Positions 37,907 to 60,388 are shown, counted from the first letter of the stretch. The stretch: DNA of 64,000 nucleotides from a virus (IMGVR_UViG_3300036907_000061:4627-68626), one strand, 5' to 3'. Program-made: numbers and translations. The notes: generated by a model from the letters alone, not told the origin.

Positions 37907-38098
37907 ATGCTGGACTTTTTCTTTCAACCACACGACCAGTCGTACCATGTATTCCGTGGCCCCGACAAGCTGGGAACCATATTTCATGGACAGGACAAGT
38001 TCTTCCACTTCCTGCCTTCCGTTCAGCCGCAGCCGTTGAGCATGCTGATGATGGATGAAATAGCCGTCAAACTTGAAAGATTGAATAACTCAAAATGA
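37907..38098 (+). CDS. Hypothetical protein
   Basis: Short ORF packed in the operon. Confidence 0.45.
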   Translation: MLDFFFQPHDQSYHVFRGPDKLGTIFHGQDKFFHFLPSVQPQPLSMLMMDEIAVKLERLNNSK

Positions 38099-39195
38099 AA
38101 AAAGACGCACGAAAGGGACTTCCTAGCGCAAGTTCCATGTCCCGATTGGAACACTGTCCCGGGTCTAACAACCTCATCAAACAGGTTGAACCCACCAAGA
38201 TCAAGTCCCATAAAGAGTGGGCATCCTCTGGGGATAGGGTGCATAAATACCTTGCCAAGCCCAATGACAAGAACTTCAAACTTTTGAGTCCTGATGAATT
38301 ATCTGTGGCACAGTCCTGTCAAGAGCAGCGAAAGCTGATCATCGAACAGGTCATTGCTGGAGAGTTCGACAGCATTGCTGAACACCGCTACTGGTATGCC
38401 CTGGAACATCCGCAGAACTTTTCAGGACAGCCAGACGAAGTGATTGTCACCATGGATGGCAAGACGGCGTTAATCATTGATTACAAGTCACTTCCGGGAG
38501 ACGTGGAGAGCGCGGAGAACAATCTGCAATTGATGTCTCTGGTATGCCTGATTCATGTCAATTTTCCCACTGTGGAAGAATGCTTTGCCGCCATAATCCA
38601 ACCGCTGGTTTCGTCAAAACCCACCATTGCACATTATCGGCGCGAGGATATGGCGGCTGCTTTAACACGCATACTAAAAATAATTAAGGACTCACAAAAC
38701 CAGGAAGCCATACGCAACCCAGGCAACCACTGTCAGTATTGCGGGGCCAAAATCTCCTGCCCGCAGGCACACGGATTGGTGACAAATGCATCCCTGGTTC
38801 GCCGGGATGAGGTGGCGGTAATGACTCCGGATAGGTTGGTGATTCTGTTGAACGCCTGCAAAGCCGCCGAGTCCATCATCAAAGCGGTAAAGGAAAGAAG
38901 CAAGGAATTGCTAAAAGAGAATCCAGAATGTATTCCAGGATGGAAACTCGAACCCGGCGACAACGTTCGCTCCATCATCGACAACAAGAAGGCTTATCTT
39001 GCCTTGATGAACGCAGGAATGATTGACCTTGAAACCTTCATGGCCATTGTCAAAATACCGCTTGGAGAACTGGAGAACACTGTGGCCGCGCGCATCAAAG
39101 TCAAGAAGACTGAGGCCAAGGTAATGGTTAATGAGACTCTCGGCGCATTGATTGAAGTGAAACAAAAAGACTCGTCACTTGCTCAAGTAAAATGA
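38095..39195 (+). CDS. Cas4-like PD-(D/E)XK exonuclease (DUF2800-like)
   Basis: SASSMSRLEHCPGS, GDRVH, GQPD, IIDYK, NLQL, HCQYCGAKISC Fe-S cysteines. Confidence 0.85.
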   Translation: MKKDARKGLPSASSMSRLEHCPGSNNLIKQVEPTKIKSHKEWASSGDRVHKYLAKPNDKNFKLLSPDELSVAQSCQEQRKLIIEQVIAGEFDSIAEHRYWYALEHPQNFSGQPDEVIVTMDGKTALIIDYKSLPGDVESAENNLQLMSLVCLIHVNFPTVEECFAAIIQPLVSSKPTIAHYRREDMAAALTRILKIIKDSQNQEAIRNPGNHCQYCGAKISCPQAHGLVTNASLVRRDEVAVMTPDRLVILLNACKAAESIIKAVKERSKELLKENPECIPGWKLEPGDNVRSIIDNKKAYLALMNAGMIDLETFMAIVKIPLGELENTVAARIKVKKTEAKVMVNETLGALIEVKQKDSSLAQVK

Positions 39196-43799: not shown

Positions 43800-43947
43800 A
43801 CTTGATCCGGCGCAAATTTGGACGGGTCGGAGTGGCCGTTTATTCCAGCCAGCCAACGCAACTGGAAGTTTCCGGTGCTCAACATTCAGCCCGCCAGCTT
43901 GACACCCGTATGCTGGCTTTGGCCCGGAGATGCGCCGGACATTGACT

Positions 43948-44733
43948 ATGAAAGAAATAAAATCACTATACCTGGCAGGTCCAATGAGGGGTTATGAATC
44001 CCTTAACTTTCCAGAGTTCCACCGTATGTCAAGGGAATTAAGAATACGTGGATACGAAGTATGGAGTCCGGCGGAAAACGATTTGTCCAACGGAGTTGAT
44101 CCTGAAAACCCAAAAACCACCGACCCTTCATTTGAAGACTGCATGGCGTTCGACCTTCCATTCGTGTGCAAGCTGGATGGAATTGCGGTATTGAAAGGAT
44201 GGGAGAAGTCTGCCGGTGCAACATTGGAAGTTTCTGTTGCCAGAAGCCTCGGCAAGCCGGTACTGGATGCTTACACCTGCGATCCAGTGGAGACTATTAG
44301 TAATGGAGGAAAACCTTCCAATCCCAAAGATGCGATTGGAAGCCACAAGATACCACTGCATTTATGGCCCGAAACAGCAACCATCATGGGCAGTCTTGGA
44401 ATGCTGGATGGAATGTTGAAGTACGGAAGGGCAAACTTTAGGGCCATTGGCATACGATACTCCATCTACATCGACGCCTTGAAACGACATGTAAACGCCC
44501 TGTTCGAGGGAGAAGACCTTGATCCTGACAGCGGACTTCCGCATGAGGCCCACGTTCTGGCATGCATGGCCATCATCATTGATGCAAAGGCGGCTGGTAA
44601 ATTGAACGATGACAGACAGGTCAATGGAGGATACAGGGGACTGATCAATTCCATGACACCACACGTCGAGAGGCTAAAAGAGCTTTACAAGGACCGCACC
44701 CCCCATCATTACACCATACAGGACAAGTTATGA
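43948..44733 (+). CDS. DUF4406-like (nucleoside deoxyribosyltransferase-like) + dATP/dGTP diphosphohydrolase-like fusion
   Basis: YLAGPMRG...NFPEF...GWEKSAGATLE in the N-terminal half; NPKDAIG..K.PL...G..KYGRANFR...DPDSGLPH.AH in the C-terminal half. Confidence 0.8.
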   Translation: MKEIKSLYLAGPMRGYESLNFPEFHRMSRELRIRGYEVWSPAENDLSNGVDPENPKTTDPSFEDCMAFDLPFVCKLDGIAVLKGWEKSAGATLEVSVARSLGKPVLDAYTCDPVETISNGGKPSNPKDAIGSHKIPLHLWPETATIMGSLGMLDGMLKYGRANFRAIGIRYSIYIDALKRHVNALFEGEDLDPDSGLPHEAHVLACMAIIIDAKAAGKLNDDRQVNGGYRGLINSMTPHVERLKELYKDRTPHHYTIQDKL

Positions 44734-52846: not shown

Positions 52847-53266
52847 ATGCAGTTCTCAGACAAGTTAAAAAGCTTTCCTCCTATTTTATGCCGACTGCTG
52901 GGCCGCAGGCCCTGGGCTGGACCTCTATCAACAAAGGAGATAGCAGAAGTCAGCGGACTTTCGGAGCCAAAAGTAGAAACCATTTCACAACAGACTGGCT
53001 GGGATGAAATCACAGTGGGTGACATGTTCGCATTCCTGACCGGTTGCGGAATCCCGCTGGACAACAGCAGCCAGATGAGAAGGGTGCTGATGTATCTCAG
53101 GAGAAATCCTGAATTTGAGTATTTATTCAACGATTCCGAGTGGAAAACCAGATGGCTGCCCATGCTGGTGAAGTTCCGCAAGATTTACCCCAGCCATCTC
53201 GTCCCAGGGACTCCTCAATTTAAACCGCTCAGGCGCCTGCTGGAACGGCTGGCCCCCATTATATGA
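52847..53266 (+). CDS. HTH-containing protein
   Basis: LSTKEIAEVSGLS. Confidence 0.55.
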   Translation: MQFSDKLKSFPPILCRLLGRRPWAGPLSTKEIAEVSGLSEPKVETISQQTGWDEITVGDMFAFLTGCGIPLDNSSQMRRVLMYLRRNPEFEYLFNDSEWKTRWLPMLVKFRKIYPSHLVPGTPQFKPLRRLLERLAPII

Positions 53267-53637
53267 CCAAGAAAGAACTCCAATCCGGACTGTTATCCTT
53301 CTCTGGACTGTCCAAGAGATGGCACAGGCATCAGTCGGGATTGGTATATTCGGATGGTGTTAAGTGGCTGTGCGACAACAACAACTGTAATGTATTGATT
53401 GATGACATATCCGCTTTCCAGGACTCGGATCGGGTCGGCAACAATATTGAAATGCAGGACTTCCAATTATGGATACTGTGGCACGACCAGTTCACCCATG
53501 TCTCCATTCTTTACGGAATGATTGACGAAAACATTCCCCCGCTCATCGAGCACAATATACCCATTCTTCTTCCTCTGGATGTCATCCGGCTTCACGTAAT
53601 CAACTCCGTTTTAATTCTACCCACTGAAAACATATGA
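53263..53637 (+). CDS. DUF6876-like protein
   Basis: FSG...WHRH...YSDGVKWL...FQLW.L...VLILP.E. Confidence 0.6.
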   Translation: MTKKELQSGLLSFSGLSKRWHRHQSGLVYSDGVKWLCDNNNCNVLIDDISAFQDSDRVGNNIEMQDFQLWILWHDQFTHVSILYGMIDENIPPLIEHNIPILLPLDVIRLHVINSVLILPTENI

Positions 53638-53695
53638 AAACCACCGAATTCGGCAAGCAGAAGATACACAAACTCTGGATTACCATTATCCCATT

Positions 53696-54070
53696 ATGAC
53701 CCACAACTCAATTCGATGCATATCGCCCTACAAGTGGAACGGCTTGTGGGTGTTCGACGACCCCAACACCGGACTGGAGAGGGAGGCTTTCGTGGCGGGG
53801 GCAGATGTCATCATAGACCAGGCAACTGCACACATCCGGGACGCGGCCAATGGATTCATTCTACTTTTCTCTGATAATCCCTTCCCCAACCACCAGGTCA
53901 GATTGGATTTGGTGGAGACACTCAAGTCTGACGATCCCGGGGAGATTGGCATGTGTGGCAGCACTTACCAGTGCCAATCCCTTGGTCTAACCGGATGGCT
54001 TTGTCCGTCCCTGTATCTTTACTTTGCCAGCATACCGCAACACATATACACGCAATTCAAATCAATTTAA
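53696..54070 (+). CDS. DUF6717-like protein
   Basis: I.PYKWNGLWVFDD...L.REAFVAGAD..ID...GWLCP.L..YF. Confidence 0.75.
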   Translation: MTHNSIRCISPYKWNGLWVFDDPNTGLEREAFVAGADVIIDQATAHIRDAANGFILLFSDNPFPNHQVRLDLVETLKSDDPGEIGMCGSTYQCQSLGLTGWLCPSLYLYFASIPQHIYTQFKSI

Positions 54071-54367: not shown

Positions 54368-54610
54368 ATGAAAGACAAAACAATGATCCGCATCGTATGC
54401 ACATTCGGCGTTGCCGAAACAACCACCCACGAGTGCCCGCAAGGCACCACCATCGGCGAACTCAAGGCCGACTCTTCGCTGAAAGCCCGCCTGGGCTACG
54501 GTGACAACGTGAAATGCCTCATCAACGGCGTTTCGATAGATGACGACGCCGAAGTTCCCGCCGGGGCCACTGTCCGTTTCGAGACCGCGGCCAACCAGAA
54601 GGCGGCGTAA
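54368..54610 (+). CDS. Ubiquitin-like (beta-grasp) protein
   Basis: IRIVCTFG...GTTIGEL...LINGV......V..GATVRFETAANQKAA is a ThiS/MoaD/Ubl-like pattern; upstream of E2, E1 and JAB genes. Confidence 0.75.
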   Translation: MKDKTMIRIVCTFGVAETTTHECPQGTTIGELKADSSLKARLGYGDNVKCLINGVSIDDDAEVPAGATVRFETAANQKAA

Positions 54611-54633
54611 GCCGTTCTTGGCAACAACCCAAA

Positions 54634-54665
54634 GAGGGGGGATAGAAATATCCTCCCTCTCCCTT
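54634..54665 (+). terminator. Hairpin after the Ubl gene
   Basis: gaggggggata-gaaa-tatcctccctc. Confidence 0.55.
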
Positions 54666-54670
54666 AATTT

Positions 54671-55366
54671 ATGTCACAACGATACTTCAGGCTGGACCTG
54701 GACGGAACGGTCACCGATGTCACCCTCTCCGAGAACAAACTTGAAGTGGGAGAGGATTTGATTTCCAACATTGGCGGATCGATTGTTAGAAAATGCCTTA
54801 ATGTCTTTCAAATAAAGGACCATGCACCCACCAGCATGGTTATAACATCGGAAAAGGTCTGCGCCACCACAATCATCTCGGAAATTCCCATCACTGCTCC
54901 GTTCATCATGTCCGGAGACGCCCTGGTTCCGGTCTTTTCATCCGACGCAGACCCTGTTTTTACAATGGTTTGGAAAGTTCCGGGGGACATGATTCTGGCA
55001 TTCATGGTTGAATGCTTCCGAGAGTCAAACCGATGGTATGCGGCACACAATCACCTGATTGCATTTGATGGCGAAAAAGCCGCCTATCGCATTCCATTGT
55101 CCAACATATACGATGACGGAAAATTATGCAATGGAGAGTTCAATTCAACGGGTAAAACGATCCAGGAAAGCGTGTCCAAAGCCCTGGACCAATTCTGCAA
55201 ATCCCAATGGAACCAGGATTTGGACCGAACCCCGTCCCAATCGCAGGCCATGTTCCGGTTCAAACCCACCGACGCTGGATTTGATCAACTGCCCCCACTC
55301 CAGAAGGACTGGAGATTACTGTGCCAGAAAATCGGAACCGAATCACTTCCGCTATTCCTGTTCTAA
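54671..55366 (+). CDS. Prokaryotic E2-like protein (family D / PRTRC-B-like)
   Basis: YRIPLSNIYDDGKLCNG...F..S.WN.DL with the putative catalytic Cys. Confidence 0.7.
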   Translation: MSQRYFRLDLDGTVTDVTLSENKLEVGEDLISNIGGSIVRKCLNVFQIKDHAPTSMVITSEKVCATTIISEIPITAPFIMSGDALVPVFSSDADPVFTMVWKVPGDMILAFMVECFRESNRWYAAHNHLIAFDGEKAAYRIPLSNIYDDGKLCNGEFNSTGKTIQESVSKALDQFCKSQWNQDLDRTPSQSQAMFRFKPTDAGFDQLPPLQKDWRLLCQKIGTESLPLFLF

Positions 55367-55368
55367 AC

Positions 55369-56178
55369 ATGAAACCAAATCCCGCAGATTTTACCATCTT
55401 GAATATCAATGCAGAACGGGGGACGATCCGATCCCTACCCCATCCAACTCTTGGATATATTCACGAATTGGAACGTGATCCCCATCTGTGGATTCACGCT
55501 GAGAGCAATCAGGGAGGGAATGGGTACACCGACGAAATCGATGAGGCGGGATGGTTTACTGCTGCAAGCGTTCATGAATTATATATTGGGGACGGTGCTC
55601 AATTCTGGGTTCCCAGTAATCCATTTGTTATCAAAGCGGAAAAATCAGCCCCATCCGGCCCATCCAGACGGTGTTTTATCGTTGAACCATCACGTCCAAA
55701 CCAATCATTTTACTGGCTGAGGGGTGAAAATGGAATGAGCTTTGGGTATACCGCCAACCGGGTGACTGCCGGAATATGGACCTTGCAGGAGGCGATGGAA
55801 AAATCATTGGGTGTCCAGTGTGAATTTTGGATTATCAATGATCGAAAATTCGAGCCCAAATCACCCACCCACCACCTCGTCCACCTGCTCACAACCTGCA
55901 AGAATAGTCCCGAGGAGGTTGATTGGCGCAAGATTCTTTCCATGGATTTTGCCAGCATGACGTCCCGGAATATATCTCCCATAAGCGACAAATGCGATTC
56001 AGCAGTCATGGCTGGATTGCTGGCTTATTCCGATAGGGCAAGAGACTTGCTGTCGTATGATGATTTCGTTGAGTTTCACATGATCTTATCAAGAGCCTGT
56101 GACCGGTACAAGTCAAAGGTGAAGGAAAATAACCTTCCCAAGACTGCAAGCAAGATAGTGTCGGCATTATTAAAATAA
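55369..56178 (+). CDS. Hypothetical protein of the Ubl operon
   Basis: Tightly packed between E2 and E1. Confidence 0.55.
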   Translation: MKPNPADFTILNINAERGTIRSLPHPTLGYIHELERDPHLWIHAESNQGGNGYTDEIDEAGWFTAASVHELYIGDGAQFWVPSNPFVIKAEKSAPSGPSRRCFIVEPSRPNQSFYWLRGENGMSFGYTANRVTAGIWTLQEAMEKSLGVQCEFWIINDRKFEPKSPTHHLVHLLTTCKNSPEEVDWRKILSMDFASMTSRNISPISDKCDSAVMAGLLAYSDRARDLLSYDDFVEFHMILSRACDRYKSKVKENNLPKTASKIVSALLK

Positions 56179-56179
56179 T

Positions 56180-56842
56180 ATGGCAAGAATATTCATCATT
56201 GGATGCGGCGGAGTGGGCTCATGGCTCGCTCCGGCAATCTGCCTGCTGGCGGGCAGGAGAAACGTAACCCTGGTTGACGGAGATTCTCTGGAGGACAAGA
56301 ATCTGGACCGTCAATTATTCTCCGAGGACGATATCGGGAGAAACAAGGCCGAGGCCCTTGCGGAAAAATACCAATGCGAGCACATACCCTCGTTTTATGA
56401 GGAGGGCCTGGTCCGGCATAAGGATTCTGACTGGCTGCTGGTTGGGGTGGACAACAATGCCGGAAGACTCTCATGTTTAAAGTCGTGCGACGACTTCGGG
56501 TGTCAGGCCATATTTGGGGCCAATGAAACCCACTCCTCCGAGGCATACTATTATCGAAAAGACTGGTCCGGAACCAGGCTGGACCCCAGAATTTACTACC
56601 CGGAGATTCTCAAACCTGGCTCCGACCCCAGGGTCAGGTCCATTGGGTGTACCGGGGAGGCGCAAAAGGACAATCCCCAACTGGTATCCTCCAACGTGTC
56701 GGCCAATTCCCTTATGCAAAGCCTGTATGTGGTCTGGGGCATGGAGGCTCCCAAGTTATCAGCCGATATCATTCCCTTTCTGCCTTTCAGAAGAATCATC
56801 AACCTGTCTGCCATGTCGGAAATTAAAGTAGGACAAGCATGA
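56180..56842 (+). CDS. ThiF/E1-like adenylyltransferase
   Basis: IIGCGGVGS, LVDGD, NLDRQ, NKAEAL, GVDNNAGR; SIGC is the putative catalytic Cys. Confidence 0.9.
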   Translation: MARIFIIGCGGVGSWLAPAICLLAGRRNVTLVDGDSLEDKNLDRQLFSEDDIGRNKAEALAEKYQCEHIPSFYEEGLVRHKDSDWLLVGVDNNAGRLSCLKSCDDFGCQAIFGANETHSSEAYYYRKDWSGTRLDPRIYYPEILKPGSDPRVRSIGCTGEAQKDNPQLVSSNVSANSLMQSLYVVWGMEAPKLSADIIPFLPFRRIINLSAMSEIKVGQA

Positions 56843-57918
56843 AACAAAACACAAGATTCAAGGATTGGAAAAAATTCGAGGCGGCAGACCCCGCCTTGAA
56901 GTCCATGGACCCGAAGCTTGAATCCATTGTCATAAACAACCATCAAACCCAGGAGGATGGCGTATTTTATTCCTCCAAGGCTTCCGGAAAATATAACAAG
57001 ACCGAAAAGGGCGCGGAGCGGATTTCCCTGGAAGAGGCCCTGAAAGTTTGCGCCGACAGGTCGGCCACCCACATATGGGTTGAGGTGTGTTTTATTTACA
57101 GTAGAATAAAATGCTCAGCTCTATCAGAATGGATTTCCCGACCGCCAAACATTGAAGGATGCCTGGTATTGTGCATGCCCCGCGAGGTGTTCTACACCCG
57201 AAGTGGTTCTGGTGGTTTTTTGTCCACCACTGACGACATCCAACTGGCCGGTAGGTGGAACGCAACTCATCCCACCATATTAAATACAGCAGGCAATAGA
57301 AGTATGGAGATTTGGATTCCATCGGAAGAGAAAATACCCGACGGCAAGACCAGGATGTGCTCCATGGAGAAAATGTTGAGCGGCAGTCTGATTGATTTGA
57401 TCAAGTCCGCGCCCAAAAATCCCGTGGTCAGGTCCATCGTGCTTCAAAAGATGAAGAAGTCCCCCCCGGACGCATGCGACACTTTTGAAAAGATCAAGGA
57501 CTGGATTGAGTTCAATTTCGCCGCTTACGAATGGGCCCCCAATCCCAAGAGTGGTCGGGGGGTGAACTTTACCATTGAGGGTTCGGATCGGGAAACGGGT
57601 TCTTGCAGCTATGCATGCCACCGATTTGGGAATGTGGAGGAGACGATTTCCGAGGATGACATTTTAGCGGAGGCCCAACGGGCGCTTGCGGAGGGCTCAA
57701 TGGAAAGCTTCATAGATTCCATACATGAAACACTGCGGGAGCGAGCCGCGTCCAACATGGAATGCGGGGGAGGGGAGGATTATGAATATGATGATTACGA
57801 AGGAAATGCTTCGGATGGATTGGAAATTGATTTGAATATCTCTGTGGTAAAAGATAAAATAACCGGATTCCTGCAAACATATCATCGGGACATCCTCAAT
57901 CAACTGAAAGAACTATGA
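56839..57918 (+). CDS. Hypothetical protein of the Ubl operon, acidic C-terminal half
   Basis: ATGA-coupled to both E1 and JAB. Confidence 0.55.
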   Translation: MKQNTRFKDWKKFEAADPALKSMDPKLESIVINNHQTQEDGVFYSSKASGKYNKTEKGAERISLEEALKVCADRSATHIWVEVCFIYSRIKCSALSEWISRPPNIEGCLVLCMPREVFYTRSGSGGFLSTTDDIQLAGRWNATHPTILNTAGNRSMEIWIPSEEKIPDGKTRMCSMEKMLSGSLIDLIKSAPKNPVVRSIVLQKMKKSPPDACDTFEKIKDWIEFNFAAYEWAPNPKSGRGVNFTIEGSDRETGSCSYACHRFGNVEETISEDDILAEAQRALAEGSMESFIDSIHETLRERAASNMECGGGEDYEYDDYEGNASDGLEIDLNISVVKDKITGFLQTYHRDILNQLKEL

Positions 57919-59150
57919 ACCTGGTCAAAACCGAAATAACCCATCTGATAAGAAACAAGGAGGCCGCCGGGATACTCCAGTTCAAGGGGGAGTATAAAGT
58001 AACCGAGGCCAAAGGGGAGCTGACCTATGCCGGTCCCAAGATTCCCCCCGGCGAATGGAACAAGATACTTTCATTCTTAAAGTGGGTGTATGACACCACC
58101 CAGAGCGAGGCCCAGGTCAGGCTGTATCTCAACACCAAGACCAATGTGTGGGCGGCGTGGGCCTATCCCCAGGAAGCCAACACCGGAATGACCGCCAAGG
58201 AGATTGCCAATGAGGCGGCCAACGCCCAAAGGGCTCAGTTCAAAGATGATGCGGGGTGGATATATTTCGGAACCGTGCACTCTCATTGCGCCTGTTCAGC
58301 ATTCCAGTCCAGCACGGACGAGTCCAATGAGAAGGACCAGGACGGAATCCATATCACCATTGGATATCTGGACAAGACGGTGTATGACTTTCACGCCAGG
58401 CTCTATTTCGGAAAGGACCAGTTTACCCCAGATATGTCTGTTTTCTGGGAAACGGGGGATGTCATGAGCGGAGTGCCGGATGTTGTAAGGGACATGATCC
58501 CGGACGGATGGCAGGACAAACTGGCAAGGATGCAAATGGTGGTTCCACCATCCGAACCATCTTTCCCGGAACCATGGAAGGAAAATGTGGTGGATGTAAG
58601 GCCGCAATGGCAGAAAAACGACCGGGCCTGGGATGAGGATAACAGGCAGGGATGGAATGGTCGTTCCAACATCATCCACATCGATGGCAAGCCCAACCGC
58701 TGGGATGAGTCCACACACCGGTATATTGAACAGGAGTGGGACCAGTTCAAATCGCAGTACGTGCCGTTGGGTTCGGCATCAAACAAAGTTCCCGAACCCT
58801 CCTCCAATCCGGCGTGGTCAAAACAAAGAAGGAAGAAGGGAAACAGGGACAAGCTTATGCCAATTGACGTCCGCAAACAGGAAGCTTGTGATGAACTTTT
58901 CAAGATGGCCAATGAGCTGGGAGCGGAAGAGGCCGATATCATGCTGGAGTCCCAAGGCCTGGCCGATTGTCCTCTGGCCTGCGCCCTGGTAAAGGTGTTA
59001 AAGGATTACGATTTGGTTCCATCCGACATGGTTGACCAGATTGAGTGGGAGTTCAAATTTGACAAGAACACAGGAGCTCTCAAAGACCCGGTCCTGGAAT
59101 ATGACAAGTCCACCAACCAGTCAGAATTCGAGTCCGGTTTTCCGAATTGA
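57915..59150 (+). CDS. JAB/MPN+ metallopeptidase domain protein
   Basis: SEAQV...GTVHSHCACSAFQSSTD...GIHITIG (E-HxH-x7-S-x2-D). Confidence 0.85.
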   Translation: MNLVKTEITHLIRNKEAAGILQFKGEYKVTEAKGELTYAGPKIPPGEWNKILSFLKWVYDTTQSEAQVRLYLNTKTNVWAAWAYPQEANTGMTAKEIANEAANAQRAQFKDDAGWIYFGTVHSHCACSAFQSSTDESNEKDQDGIHITIGYLDKTVYDFHARLYFGKDQFTPDMSVFWETGDVMSGVPDVVRDMIPDGWQDKLARMQMVVPPSEPSFPEPWKENVVDVRPQWQKNDRAWDEDNRQGWNGRSNIIHIDGKPNRWDESTHRYIEQEWDQFKSQYVPLGSASNKVPEPSSNPAWSKQRRKKGNRDKLMPIDVRKQEACDELFKMANELGAEEADIMLESQGLADCPLACALVKVLKDYDLVPSDMVDQIEWEFKFDKNTGALKDPVLEYDKSTNQSEFESGFPN

Positions 59151-59867: not shown

Positions 59868-60122
59868 ATGGCCAGAAAACTTCTTCCCCTGATACATTAC
59901 TCTCCTGGAGCACAGTTATCACCCCAATTCAACCCTCCCAAACCACTGGCCTGCTGCCCGTCATGCAAGCGTCCGCTAATCGCGGAAAAGAAAGAAGGTT
60001 TGTTTGCGGTATATTGTGGAAATCCCCATTGTGACAGCGTAATCGCCAACACCGGGGCTTCCGGCAGTACTCCTGATGAGGCTATGGACAACTTCAATGC
60101 CAAAATGGCAAAAAATATATGA
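59868..60122 (+). CDS. Lar-like zinc-finger protein
   Basis: CPSC...VYCGNPHC...EAMDNFN. Confidence 0.55.
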   Translation: MARKLLPLIHYSPGAQLSPQFNPPKPLACCPSCKRPLIAEKKEGLFAVYCGNPHCDSVIANTGASGSTPDEAMDNFNAKMAKNI

Positions 60123-60388
60123 CTGAAACCGAGACCAAACTGCGCGAAATCCTATGCCTGTTTCTGGGCATAAATACGGACCAGATTCAACCATCTTCGG
60201 ACATCATAAAAGACCTTGGTGCTGATAGTCTGGACGTGGTGGAAATCATCATGGAAATAGAAGATGAATTTCAGATTGCCATCGACGACGAAGACGTATT
60301 AAAAATAAAGACATTCCAGGATGTGCTTGCTTTGGTGGATAAAGAGTCGTCCTCACTACTGAGTCATCAATTCCAGGGTGACTCATAA
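60119..60388 (+). CDS. acpP: Acyl carrier protein
   Basis: DLGADSLDVVEIIMEIEDEFQI.IDDED..KIKT with the phosphopantetheine Ser. Confidence 0.92.
   Translation: MTETETKLREILCLFLGINTDQIQPSSDIIKDLGADSLDVVEIIMEIEDEFQIAIDDEDVLKIKTFQDVLALVDKESSSLLSHQFQGDS

What the first reader, a model, noticed from the sequence alone, without database searches (positions are those of the whole stretch)
54368..59150. Complete phage-encoded ubiquitin-like conjugation operon (Ubl-E2-X-E1-Y-JAB)
Seen: a tightly packed operon with a beta-grasp protein, an E2-like protein with Cys (NIYDDGKLC), a ThiF/E1 with nucleotide-binding motifs and a candidate catalytic Cys, a JAB peptidase with an intact zinc motif, and two unknown ORFs between them. 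Known: Ubl/E1/E2/JAB sets occur in PRTRC-type loci and in bacterial antiphage conjugation systems (Bil, CBASS Cap2/Cap3). Inference: in a phage early region this may tag host or phage proteins for takeover or counter-defence. X and Y are candidate E3 or substrate proteins.
Basis: partly seen in the sequence, partly recalled or inferred. Interest (0 to 1): 0.85.

Follow-up and report, generated by a model that had tools for sequence, protein, structure and literature searches.

The report
Phage-borne ubiquitin-like protein tagging operon
A bacterial virus from peat carries a compact six-gene set that looks able to attach a small ubiquitin-like protein to other proteins, and the same set turns out to be common in uncultured phages although nobody knows what it tags.

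Summary
Window 54368-59150 (+) carries six tightly packed genes in a 98%-complete phage genome: Ubl, E2-like, X, ThiF-type E1, Y and JAB.

- **E1:** the firmest part. It passes Pfam's ThiF cut-off and matches solved E1 enzymes.
- **Ubl:** has a beta-grasp model, and its tail docks in the E1 active site in a controlled co-fold.
- **JAB:** keeps E..HxHx7SxxD in 26 of 26 relatives.
- **E2:** keeps PxxNx7CxG and matches PRTRC protein B by profile (93%). Fold search found no solved E2, so this is the weakest part.

**Distribution:** the order Ubl-E2-(small variable gene)-E1-(Y)-JAB recurs in 64 of 79 viral contigs fetched through JAB. It also occurs in seven Verrucomicrobiota MAG contigs.

**New points:**
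- The Ubl tail is an invariant Lys followed by Ala or Gly, not Gly-Gly.
- About half of the Ubls carry caps, longer tails or tandem copies that need trimming.
- A hairpin follows the Ubl gene.
- Y is a large family with no known fold.

**Closest known:** the uncharacterised PRTRC cassette. This operon fails PRTRC's cut-offs and has no ParB.

**Reading:** a real Ubl conjugation cascade, about 0.75. Its role (takeover, counter-defence or exclusion) is untested.

The scan flagged a similar operon in another genome (e1-6308858).

The parts
54368..54610 (+). Ubl: 80-aa ubiquitin-like modifier precursor. Homologues start at the window's Met6 (54383). Tail ETAANQK-A-A: invariant Lys78, Ala79, and one capping Ala80.
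   Evidence: Atlas model TM 0.70-0.78 to Ub-RnfH, SUMO/ubiquitin, ThiS/MoaE and SAMP2 clusters. Weak Pfam hits are mostly beta-grasp families. Co-fold with the E1 dimer: ipSAE 0.77 against a best control of 0.00. Tail statistics.
54633..54660 (+). 12-bp G+C-rich hairpin between the Ubl and E2 genes (terminator- or attenuator-like, or an mRNA-stabilising 3' structure).
   Evidence: A strong hairpin sits at the same place in 27 of 27 close loci, with different sequences (z -2.9 to -7.5). In the wider set 40 of 65 reach z <= -3, against 8 of 77 control windows inside E1.
54671..55366 (+). E2-like protein (231 aa): variable beta-rich N-terminal part, then a conserved P142-x-x-N145-x7-C153-x-G155 active-site loop.
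   Evidence: These residues are invariant in 26 of 26. Prok-E2_D sub-threshold hits in 15 of 26. hhalign to PRTRC_B: 93.3%, E 2.7e-7, 61 columns. AF2 pLDDT 88.7. No solved E2 found by Foldseek or by profile.
55321..56178 (+). X: unknown protein (269 aa from the ATG at 55369). The last ~105 aa align with the small X genes of relatives. The N-terminal ~165 aa are specific to this window.
   Evidence: No Pfam, NCBIfam, PHROG or PADLOC hit. An ORF of 77-368 aa fills this slot in 68 of 69 loci, but the ORFs are not one family by hhalign. It has the highest dN/dS of the six genes in 6 of 7 computable pairs, always below 1.
56180..56842 (+). E1: 220-aa single-domain ThiF-type adenylating enzyme. GxGGxG 8-13, D33, D35, N41, R44, Q45, K56, D91; candidate catalytic Cys157 in GCTGEAQ.
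   Evidence: Pfam ThiF 61.6 bits against a cut-off of 28.1. Profile hits to solved E1-family enzymes: TcdA 5.7e-18, UBA5 1.2e-15, BubCD 8e-13, ThiF 5e-11, MoeB 2.9e-9, Cap2 3e-9. hhalign to PRTRC ThiF: 99.5%, 205 columns, with Cys157 aligned to its Cys. Conserved residues.
56839..57918 (+). Y: unknown protein. The conserved ~190-aa C-terminal core (about 170-359) is helices, a long beta-hairpin, helices and an acidic loop. The N-terminal ~165 aa are variable and modelled with low confidence.
   Evidence: AF2 core pLDDT is mostly above 90; residues 1-166 are below 50. No Foldseek PDB match at E <= 0.001. No Pfam family. No PDB profile hit. 603 representative clusters at E <= 0.001. Present in 32 of 79 JAB-fetched loci. 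dN/dS 0.10-0.35.
57915..59150 (+). JAB/JAMM metallopeptidase (411 aa): conserved N-terminal ~230 aa with E65...H122-x-H124-x7-S132-x-x-D135, and a variable C-terminal half.
   Evidence: The motif is invariant in 26 of 26. Prok-JAB 23.2 bits against a cut-off of 25, hit by only 3 of 26 members at E <= 0.01. PRTRC_A hit at 9e-5. hhalign to PRTRC_A: 78.5%, E 1.7e-5. No PDB profile hit.

Best explanation
This is a phage-borne ubiquitin-like protein conjugation cascade. It is a distant, virus-specific relative of the PRTRC cassette.

Proposed steps:
1. The Ubl gene is followed by a hairpin, which probably makes Ubl more abundant than the enzymes (inferred).
2. The Ubl is made as a precursor ending ...N-Q-K-A-A. 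The JAB metallopeptidase removes what follows the Lys-Ala, here one Ala. In relatives it would remove up to 30 residues or cut between tandem copies (inferred from family pattern).
3. The E1 dimer binds the Ubl through its LGYGDN loop and threads the tail into the ATP site. It adenylates the terminal Ala and probably takes it as a thioester on Cys157. The docking is modelled; the chemistry is inferred.
4. Cys153 of the E2 takes over the Ubl and passes it to lysines of target proteins (inferred).
5. JAB may also reverse the tags.

The variable N-terminal part of E2 and the fast-evolving X are the best candidates for choosing targets. Y is an accessory subunit or a target that occurs in this branch only.

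The module is accessory and moves between unrelated phage backbones. I therefore think it acts on host or competing-element proteins during infection (takeover or counter-defence), not in virion building.

Odds: conjugation chemistry about 0.75. The takeover or counter-defence role about 0.4.
For: - **E1:** Pfam ThiF scores above its cut-off. The family profile matches solved E1 enzymes. The ATP, Mg and Arg-finger residues are invariant, and Cys157 is nearly so.
- **Ubl fold:** the Atlas model has TM 0.70-0.78 to seven named Ubl clusters, and every row that carries a Pfam family is beta-grasp.
- **Ubl-E1 docking:** ipSAE 0.77 against a best of 3 controls of 0.00. That mark was reached by 58 of 80 solved complexes and 2 of 110 mismatched pairs. 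The runs share at least 92% of contacts and the partner pLDDT is at least 87. Ubl residues 73-80 touch E1 residues 8, 10-13, 44, 89-93 and 113-121. ThiF-ThiS-type complexes are solved, so the pass may reflect likeness. My own alignments and three chains also differ from the calibration.
- **Tail pattern in 67 Ubl ORFs:** Lys is invariant, followed by A in 58, G in 6, Q in 2 and N in 1. 37 end there, 20 carry 1-2 further residues and 10 carry 3-30. Six are tandem di-Ubls.
- **JAB:** the motif is invariant in 26 of 26.
- **E2:** the motif is invariant in 26 of 26, and the profile link to PRTRC_B is 93.3%.
- **Gene order:** kept in 64 of 79 JAB-fetched loci.
- **Selection:** purifying on all six genes.
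- **Hairpin:** 27 of 27 close loci.
- **Accessory and mobile:** the window's terminase has no match in 17 of 21 operon-bearing records, and its primase/helicase none in 17 of 21. Two complete genomes whose terminase is 56-57% identical to that of an operon-bearing phage lack E1 and JAB, and the positive controls rang.
Against: - No experiment exists, and no RNA run was listed.
- The confident E2 model (pLDDT 88.7) found no solved E2 or any other structure at E <= 0.001. The E2 profile hit nothing in the PDB even at E <= 10. Pfam Prok-E2_D stays below its cut-off (16.7 against 25 bits).
- Prok-JAB is below its cut-off and is hit by only 3 of 26 members.
- The Ubl has no terminal Gly and shows no profile similarity to PRTRC_C.
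- The Pfam ThiF match covers only residues 2-64.
- X and Y have no known fold or family, so target choice is a guess.
- The two genomes without the operon differ over the whole left arm. Their lack of it says little about dispensability.
- The phage has a tyrosine integrase. A defence role in the lysogen therefore fits equally well.
Confidence: 0.55

Rival explanations
1. Same chemistry, opposite role. The operon is a prophage-carried defence or superinfection-exclusion system, like Bil. It would tag proteins of incoming rival phages to protect the lysogen.
For: - The window phage has a tyrosine integrase 3 kb downstream.
- Seven of the 8 genome-collection hits lie in Verrucomicrobiota MAG contigs. 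One contig is 125,616 bases, longer than these phages.
- The module is accessory and moves between backbones.
- All bacterial Ubl/E1/E2/JAB systems characterised so far are antiviral (PMC10557695, passages read).
- X evolves fast, as expected in an arms race.
Against: - The operon is co-oriented and tightly packed inside the replication and recombination block. In relatives it sits just upstream of RecT and a PD-(D/E)XK/DUF2800 nuclease. It is not a separate island.
- 11 of the 21 operon-bearing virus records have direct terminal repeats, the state of packaged virions.
- PADLOC models hit only the E1 Rossmann part.
- I did not check whether the MAG contigs are integrated prophages.
Confidence: 0.22
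2. The cascade regulates the phage's own replication, recombination or maintenance. This is what PRTRC cassettes are assumed to do on plasmids and ICEs. It would tag a phage protein, with Y or X as the substrate.
For: - The operon lies among replication and recombination genes.
- Y is translationally coupled to E1 and JAB through 4-nt overlaps, and Y is under purifying selection.
- PRTRC is described as a presumed partitioning cassette (PMC13366799, passages read).
Against: - No ParB_N, PRTRC_D or PRTRC_E was found in the 68.6-kb genome. The PRTRC_D search rang nowhere, so it says nothing.
- Y is missing from 47 of 79 loci, and in 39 of these E1 abuts JAB.
- No Lys is invariant in Y.
- The module sits on unrelated backbones with different replication genes.
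Confidence: 0.12
3. It is not a protein tagger. The Ubl would be a sulfur carrier (ThiS/MoaD/CysO type) that E1 adenylates for thiocarboxylate chemistry, with JAB uncapping it. The product could be a modified nucleotide or a cofactor.
For: - E1 is a small single-domain ThiF/MoeB-type enzyme.
- JAB with Ubl and E1 sets occur in sulfur assimilation (PMC1779556, passages read).
- The phage has other nucleotide-metabolism genes, for example a dATP/dGTP diphosphohydrolase domain.
Against: - A conserved Cys-bearing E2 homologue sits in 64 of 79 loci.
- The Pfam and NCBIfam scans of the six proteins showed no rhodanese or sulfurtransferase.
- The tail ends Lys-Ala, not Gly-Gly.
- Tandem di-Ubl genes fit a released modifier.
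Confidence: 0.05

Closest known systems
PRTRC cassette (ParB-related, ThiF-related cassette; NCBIfam TIGR03734-03742). From its taxa and description I take it to be operon type 6d of Iyer, Burroughs and Aravind 2006; that equation is my inference, not a tested fact.
   Same: - Stand-alone ~70-aa Ubl whose tail is Lys plus one small residue: A-G-A-K-G in four PRTRC_C proteins, A-N-x-K-A here.
- E2 with P-x-x-N-x7-C-x-G (hhalign 93.3%).
- Single-domain ~220-280-aa ThiF E1 with an aligned Cys (99.5%).
- JAB peptidase (78.5%).
- Carried by mobile elements, prophages included (PMC13366799 and bioRxiv 10.64898/2026.10.01.756045; passages read).
- Function unknown in both.
   Different: - All four proteins score far below PRTRC cut-offs: 29.9 against 144.75, 12.7 against 131.45, 22.1 against 101.8, and no hit for C.
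- No profile similarity of the Ubl to PRTRC_C.
- No ParB or PRTRC_E.
- Order is Ubl-E2-X-E1-Y-JAB, against C-(D-position gene)-B-A-ThiF in four genomes.
- The terminal residue is mostly Ala.
- The E2 lacks the downstream His seen in PRTRC_B.
- X and Y match neither the D-position nor the E-position proteins.
BilABCD (type I and II) antiviral ubiquitination-like operons
   Same: - A four-part set of Ubl, E2, JAB deubiquitinase and E1.
- The Ubl is made with a short non-conserved C-terminal extension that the JAB enzyme removes. In E. aridi a single terminal Ala blocks adenylation.
- Multi-beta-grasp Ubls exist.
(All from PMC10557695, passages read.)
   Different: - Bil E1 is multidomain (inactive and active adenylation domains plus a CYS domain), and its Ubl has a universally conserved Gly (same passages). 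Here E1 has 220 aa and one domain, and the tail is Lys-Ala.
- Bil is a bacterial defence system. This operon is on phage genomes.
- No sequence-level match to Bil was seen in any search.
Type II CBASS Cap2/Cap3
   Same: An E1-type adenylation domain (PADLOC E1-E2 models and NCBIfam cap2_3 hit E1 residues 2-65; PDB Cap2 3e-9) and a JAB partner.
   Different: Cap2 is an E1-E2 fusion that conjugates a CD-NTase. Here E1 and E2 are separate, a dedicated Ubl exists, and no CD-NTase is present.
Lambda/T1 tail assembly proteins TAPI (Ubl) and TAPK (JAB + NlpC/P60)
   Same: A phage-encoded Ubl with a JAB peptidase predicted to release it (PMC1779556, passages read).
   Different: These have no E1 or E2 and lie in the tail module. 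Here the operon lies about 25 kb from the terminase, on the other strand and among replication genes.
ThiS-ThiF and MoaD-MoeB sulfur-carrier pairs
   Same: Beta-grasp carrier plus a small homodimeric adenylating E1. The modelled interface has the tail in the ATP site.
   Different: Those carriers end in Gly-Gly and have no E2. JAB is usually absent.

Membership tests
PRTRC system | ThiF protein reaches the TIGR03736 cut-off | tested here: not met
   29.9 bits against 144.75, over residues 3-64 only. It is homologous by hhalign: 99.5% over 205 columns.
PRTRC system | Protein B (E2) reaches the TIGR03737 cut-off | tested here: not met
   12.7 bits against 131.45. hhalign 93.3% over 61 columns around the Cys.
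PRTRC system | Protein A (JAB) reaches the TIGR03735 cut-off | tested here: not met
   22.1 bits against 101.8. hhalign 78.5% over 58 columns.
PRTRC system | Protein C (Ubl) matches TIGR03738 | tested here: not met
   No hit for any of 26 members at E <= 1. hhalign probability 0.4%. Only the Lys plus small-residue tail is alike.
PRTRC system | ParB homologue and proteins D/E in the cassette | tested here: not met
   No ParB_N or PRTRC_E in the whole 68.6-kb record, and the controls rang. The PRTRC_D search rang nowhere and is uninformative. X and Y do not match the D- or E-position proteins.
E1 / ThiF superfamily (PF00899) | Rossmann adenylation domain with GxGxxG, the Arg finger and the Mg-binding Asp | tested here: met
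   61.6 bits against a cut-off of 28.1. 63 PDB sequences at E <= 1e-5. D33, D35, N41, R44, Q45, K56 and D91 are invariant in 29 rows.
E2 / UBC superfamily (Pfam Prok-E2_D, PF14460) | Catalytic Cys preceded by the conserved Asn loop, on a UBC fold | tested here: inconclusive
   The motif P142-x-x-N145-x7-C153 is invariant. Its spacing equals that of the HPN-Cys loop of canonical E2s; that comparison is recalled, not tested. 15 of 26 members hit PF14460, all below the cut-off. In the AF2 model the Cys sits after four strands and before a helix. Foldseek found no E2, and there are no PDB profile hits.
JAMM/MPN+ metallopeptidases (Pfam Prok-JAB, PF14464) | E...HxHx7SxxD zinc motif | tested here: met
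   E65, H122, H124, S132 and D135 are invariant in 26 of 26. The Pfam score of 23.2 is below the cut-off of 25, and only 3 of 26 members hit at E <= 0.01.
Ubiquitin-like beta-grasp modifiers | Beta-grasp fold with a flexible C-terminal tail that enters the E1 active site | tested here: met
   Atlas model (pTM 0.64) has TM 0.70-0.78 to Ub-RnfH, SUMO, ThiS/MoaE, SAMP2 and ubiquitin clusters. In the co-fold, tail residues 73-80 sit at the E1 P-loop, R44 and D91 region. These are model-based results, not measurements.
Ubiquitin-like beta-grasp modifiers | C-terminal Gly or Gly-Gly | tested here: not met
   The tail is Lys-Ala in 58 of 67 ORFs, Lys-Gly in 6, and Lys-Gln or Lys-Asn in 3.
BilABCD | Multidomain E1 (IAD + AAD + CYS) and a Ubl with a conserved Gly | tested here: not met
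   E1 has 220 aa and a single adenylation domain. The Ubl tail has no Gly. The criteria come from PMC10557695.

The most novel reading that the evidence does not exclude
Phages of environmental bacteria carry their own widespread ubiquitin-like tagging system, with a Lys-Ala rather than Gly-Gly terminus. They would use it to mark host or rival proteins during infection, a prokaryotic counterpart of the way eukaryotic viruses exploit ubiquitin. The variable E2 N-terminal part and the fast-evolving X would be the target selectors in an arms race. Y would be a new kind of accessory factor (E3-like or regulatory) with a fold not yet seen in solved structures.
Probability: 0.3. Interest if true: 0.85.

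Novelty: new variant of a known kind. Interest (0 to 1): 0.68.

Why it matters
All bacterial Ubl conjugation systems with a known role (type II CBASS, Bil) defend cells against phages. A complete and widespread cascade carried by the phages themselves would show the other side of that conflict. It could also give the first function for the long-uncharacterised PRTRC-like group.

The system is small: an 80-aa Ubl, a 220-aa E1 and a 231-aa E2. It is diverse, with at least 112 viral contigs through JAB and 603 Y clusters. It has a usable chemical signature, because trypsin would leave a single Ala (+71 Da) on modified lysines. The question can therefore be tested directly by expression and mass spectrometry.

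The Lys-Ala or Lys-Gly terminus, the natural caps and the tandem genes also make it a clean case for studying how E1 and JAB enzymes read non-Gly-Gly tails.

Tried and rejected
- **DNA similarity:** the operon has no match in 50,697 deposited phage records by blastn.
- **tblastn against the same phage records:** JAB gave no match at E <= 1e-3. E1 gave 8 weak records, none above 60% identity and mostly N-terminal only. I take this to mean there is no cultured relative in that collection.
- **E2 bridge:** an E2 profile search of the 90%-clustered protein collection gave only 12 proteins, none with a precomputed Pfam domain. It gave no bridge to Prok-E2_D.
- **Foldseek:** E2 against PDB gave 0 hits at E <= 0.001. 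E2 against BFVD gave 2 uncharacterised phage proteins. Y against PDB gave 0 hits at E <= 0.001.
- **PDB profile searches:** Ubl, E2, Y and JAB gave nothing meaningful.
- **Atlas search for Y:** scores were 0.83 or lower, with no structure held.
- **Y as a query:** the alignment was too poorly conserved for the search for related loci.
- **X:** it is not a single family by BLAST clustering or hhalign.
- **Terminase relatives:** the window's terminase alone found no relatives in viral contigs.
- **Rejected idea, core gene of one phage lineage:** the operon sits on at least three terminase types. It is missing from two complete genomes whose terminase is related to that of an operon-bearing phage. 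Those two genomes share almost nothing with the first 20 kb of G404, so this says little about dispensability.
- **Rejected idea, hairpin universal in the family:** it is strong in 27 of 27 close loci but in only 40 of 65 of the wider set.
- **Sequencing runs:** no RNA holder listed. I laid no reads.
- **Papers not held:** Burroughs et al. 2008 and 2009. I cannot say whether they describe this phage family.
- **Claim that this variant is not in print:** it rests on searches only.

Full report
**Setting.** The window is bases 4627-68626 of a 68,626-base virus record that CheckV rates 98% complete. Large minus-strand ORFs up to about 32 kb include a terminase large subunit and a virion protein. 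The plus-strand block from 32.8 kb onward starts with a primase/helicase. It also holds a DUF2800/PD-(D/E)XK nuclease, a metallophosphatase and a dATP/dGTP diphosphohydrolase-domain protein. Further along are an acyl-carrier-like protein and a tyrosine integrase. The finding lies in this replication and accessory block, about 3 kb upstream of the integrase.

**Observation.** Six plus-strand ORFs sit at the stated coordinates. X ends 1 nt before E1. E1/Y and Y/JAB overlap by 4 nt. If X starts at the ATG at 55369, it begins 2 nt after the E2 stop. The only real gap is 60 nt after the Ubl gene, and it holds a 12-bp G+C-rich hairpin.

**Conservation.**
- An E1-based scan gave 21 family loci and 9 distant ones in viral contigs. 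It also gave 7 Verrucomicrobiota MAG contigs and one unrelated N-terminal match in genomes.
- Of the 28 family loci, 23 carry Ubl, E2, E1, Y and JAB in the window's order. Four are cut by contig ends, and one (L021) has no detectable Y.
- An independent JAB-based scan found 112 relatives. 79 loci were kept. Profile HMMs of my alignments found Ubl, E2, E1 and JAB in that order in 64 of the 79.
- Of the other 15, 14 lack one or more of the four, mostly at contig ends. One (L162) is rearranged.
- NG86 dN/dS on 8 close pairs is below 1 for every gene: Ubl 0.05-0.37, E2 0.10-0.44, X 0.20-0.68, E1 0.07-0.42, Y 0.10-0.35, JAB 0.08-0.39. X is the highest in 6 of 7 computable pairs.

**E1.**
- Pfam ThiF scores 61.6 bits against a cut-off of 28.1, though only over residues 2-64.
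- The 29-row family profile matches 63 PDB sequences at E <= 1e-5 over positions 3-120. These include TcdA, UBA5, UBA6, SAE2, BubCD, Uba4, ThiF, MoeB and Cap2.
- D33, D35, N41, R44, Q45, K56 and D91 are invariant. The glycine loop and Cys157 (GCTGEAQ) are nearly so.
- Against four PRTRC ThiF proteins hhalign gives 99.5% over 205 columns, and Cys157 aligns with their Cys.

**Ubl.**
- Pfam gives only weak hits, but they cluster in beta-grasp families. For the window protein these are Ubiquitin_TPR1 (0.0084) and ThiS (0.11).
- Across the 26 members the hits are IQUB 3, ThiS 2, and one each of Ub-Mut7C, YukD, TGS, TUG-UBL1 and PB1, among 21 families listed.
- The ESM Atlas holds this exact sequence with a model (pTM 0.64). 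Structure search gave three unnamed viral clusters at TM 0.83-0.87. After them came Ub-RnfH 0.78, SUMO 0.73, MoaE/ThiS 0.74, SAMP2/ThiS 0.70, ubiquitin 0.73 and another SUMO cluster 0.71. Every row with a Pfam family is a Ubl family.
- A co-fold of two E1 chains with the Ubl scored ipSAE 0.77 against a best of 3 controls of 0.00. That mark was reached by 58 of 80 solved complexes and 2 of 110 mismatched pairs. The runs share at least 92% of contacts, and the partner pLDDT is at least 87.
- In that model Ubl residues 73-80 touch E1 residues 8, 10-13, 44, 89-93 and 113-121. The conserved LGYGDN loop (36-47) touches E1 206-213 and the second protomer.
- Two cautions apply. ThiF-ThiS-type complexes are solved, so this shows likeness at least. 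My alignments and the three-chain set-up also differ from the calibration.

**The tail.**
- In 26 close homologues the core ends ET-x-A-N-x-K-(A/N/Q).
- In 67 Ubl ORFs of the wider set the Lys is invariant. It is followed by Ala in 58, Gly in 6, Gln in 2 and Asn in 1.
- 37 proteins end at that residue, 20 carry 1-2 further residues and 10 carry 3-30. Six are tandem di-Ubls whose first copy ends the same way.
- The window's Ubl ends K78-A79-A80, so it carries a one-residue cap.
- The pattern is what a processed modifier would show, and it parallels type II BilA. There a conserved Gly is followed by up to nine residues, and a single terminal Ala blocks adenylation until the JAB enzyme removes it (PMC10557695, passages read).
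- Four PRTRC_C proteins that I fetched end A-G-A-K-G or G-T-K-G. They have the same Lys plus small-residue ending, although hhalign sees no overall similarity (0.4%).

**E2.**
- P87, F89, W101, L129, P142, N145, C153, G155 and L184 are invariant in 26 sequences.
- 15 of 26 members hit Pfam Prok-E2_D, best E 3e-4, all below the cut-off.
- hhalign against four PRTRC_B proteins gives 93.3% (E 2.7e-7) over 61 columns. It aligns P-x-x-N-x7-C-x-G in both. PRTRC_B has a downstream His that this family lacks.
- The AF2 model is confident (pLDDT 88.7, pTM 0.78). It has strands at 96-102, 108-118, 121-132 and 138-140, then the Cys loop, then a helix at 164-177. An extra beta-rich part precedes these.
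- Foldseek found nothing in the PDB at E <= 0.001. In BFVD it found only two uncharacterised phage proteins.
- I therefore call it E2-like by motif and profile, with the fold unconfirmed.

**JAB.**
- E65, H122, H124, S132 and D135 are invariant in 26 of 26.
- Prok-JAB scores 23.2 against 25 bits, and only 3 of 26 members hit it.
- PRTRC_A hits at 9e-5. hhalign to PRTRC_A gives 78.5% over the HxH...S..D block.
- The C-terminal half is variable.

**X and Y.**
- An ORF of 77-368 aa (mostly 105-125) fills the E2-E1 slot in 68 of 69 loci. These ORFs fall into many BLAST clusters. hhalign links only one pair of clusters, at 73%.
- The window's X is unusually long. It has no family hit.
- Y has a ~190-aa conserved core with only P192, N194 and R198 invariant or nearly so. 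The core model is confident, and the N-terminal 166 residues are disordered in it.
- Y has no Foldseek, Pfam or PDB match.
- A full HMMER search found 603 representative clusters at E <= 0.001, of which 276 are at <= 1e-30.
- Y is present in 32 of 79 JAB-fetched loci. In 39 loci without it, E1 abuts JAB within -13 to +11 nt. Y is therefore an addition of the window's branch.

**Hairpin.** All 27 close loci, the window included, have a strong hairpin between Ubl and E2. The sequences differ, and a U-run often follows (z -2.9 to -7.5). In the wider set 40 of 65 reach z <= -3, against 8 of 77 control windows inside E1. I read it as a device that raises Ubl above the enzymes, either by partial termination or through a stable 3' end. 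That is inference.

**Relation to PRTRC.**
- In four genomes the canonical order is ParB-size gene ... C, a 336-459-aa gene, B, A, ThiF.
- The window's proteins fall far below all PRTRC cut-offs.
- The genome has no ParB_N or PRTRC_E.
- X and Y match none of the other cassette proteins.
- So this is a relative of PRTRC, not a member.

**Distribution.**
- The window's terminase has no match in 17 of 21 operon-bearing records. The exceptions are L021's record at 43% identity and three records at 28%.
- Its primase/helicase is likewise unmatched in 17 of 21.
- Yet its E1 is closest (50-59%) to the ~56-kb group with direct terminal repeats and to the MAG contigs. This shows module exchange between phage backbones.
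- Two complete genomes whose terminase is 56-57% identical to G404's lack E1 and JAB, and the positive controls rang. Their whole left arm differs, however.
- Near-identical DNA occurs in several peat and permafrost metagenome runs. No RNA run was listed.

**Literature.**
- Iyer et al. 2006 (PMC1779556; section 14 and passages read) defined bacterial E1/E2/JAB/Ubl operon types. For phages it noted only the TAPI/TAPK tail-assembly pair.
- Canonical PRTRC cassettes have since been annotated in a Burkholderia gladioli prophage, with the remark that the function has not been studied (PMC13366799, passages read).
- They have also been found in a Phocaeicola prophage, where protein B is a target of a diversity-generating retroelement (bioRxiv 10.64898/2026.10.01.756045, passages read). 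That fits an E2 that recognises targets directly.
- My five searches found no description of the present variant.
- An earlier first-stage note of this scan (e1-6308858) flagged a similar operon in another genome.

**Verdict.** The biochemical reading, a Ubl-E1-E2-JAB conjugation cascade, is well supported for E1, Ubl and JAB and moderately supported for E2. The biological role is open. I favour action on host or rival proteins (about 0.4) over lysogen defence (about 0.22), self-regulation (about 0.12) and sulfur transfer (about 0.05).

Noticed in passing
window 60119-60388 (+): An 89-aa protein with a clear phosphopantetheine-attachment (acyl carrier protein) domain (PF00550, 58.6 bits). It lies in the phage accessory region, next to small zinc-finger genes.
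   Followed up: no
window 43930-44733 (+): A fusion of DUF4406 with the N-terminal domain of dATP/dGTP diphosphohydrolase (PF18909, 74 bits). From memory, this domain is linked to phages that alter their DNA bases. Nothing further was checked.
   Followed up: no
window 53263-54070 (+): Two DUF genes lie directly upstream of the operon: DUF6876 (54.3 bits) and DUF6717 (55.2 bits). They are not conserved next to the operon in relatives.
   Followed up: partly
L023-L031 (viral contigs of 80-222 kb): Nine large phage contigs carry a ThiF-type E1 only 29% identical to the window's. BLAST detected no Ubl, E2, Y or JAB of this family there. They may hold another E1-based system.
   Followed up: no
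L162:5585-9400: This is the only rearranged operon: di-Ubl, then JAB, E1 and E2. Both Ubl copies end Lys-Gly.
   Followed up: partly
L113-L161 (33 loci): In the branch without Y, the gene between E2 and E1 is a well-conserved ~110-aa family with the motif CGRKRGAILRYIK. It is unrelated by hhalign to the window's X.
   Followed up: partly
L016:6707-7909 and the same slot in L017, L018: An extra 400-aa gene with no Pfam match sits between E1 and Y in the di-Ubl branch.
   Followed up: partly
L001:9366-10304 and neighbours: In the ~56-kb phage group the operon lies just upstream of a RecT recombinase. A DUF2800/PD-(D/E)XK nuclease follows in 10 loci. In the window the nuclease homologue is 15 kb away, at 38095-39195.
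   Followed up: partly
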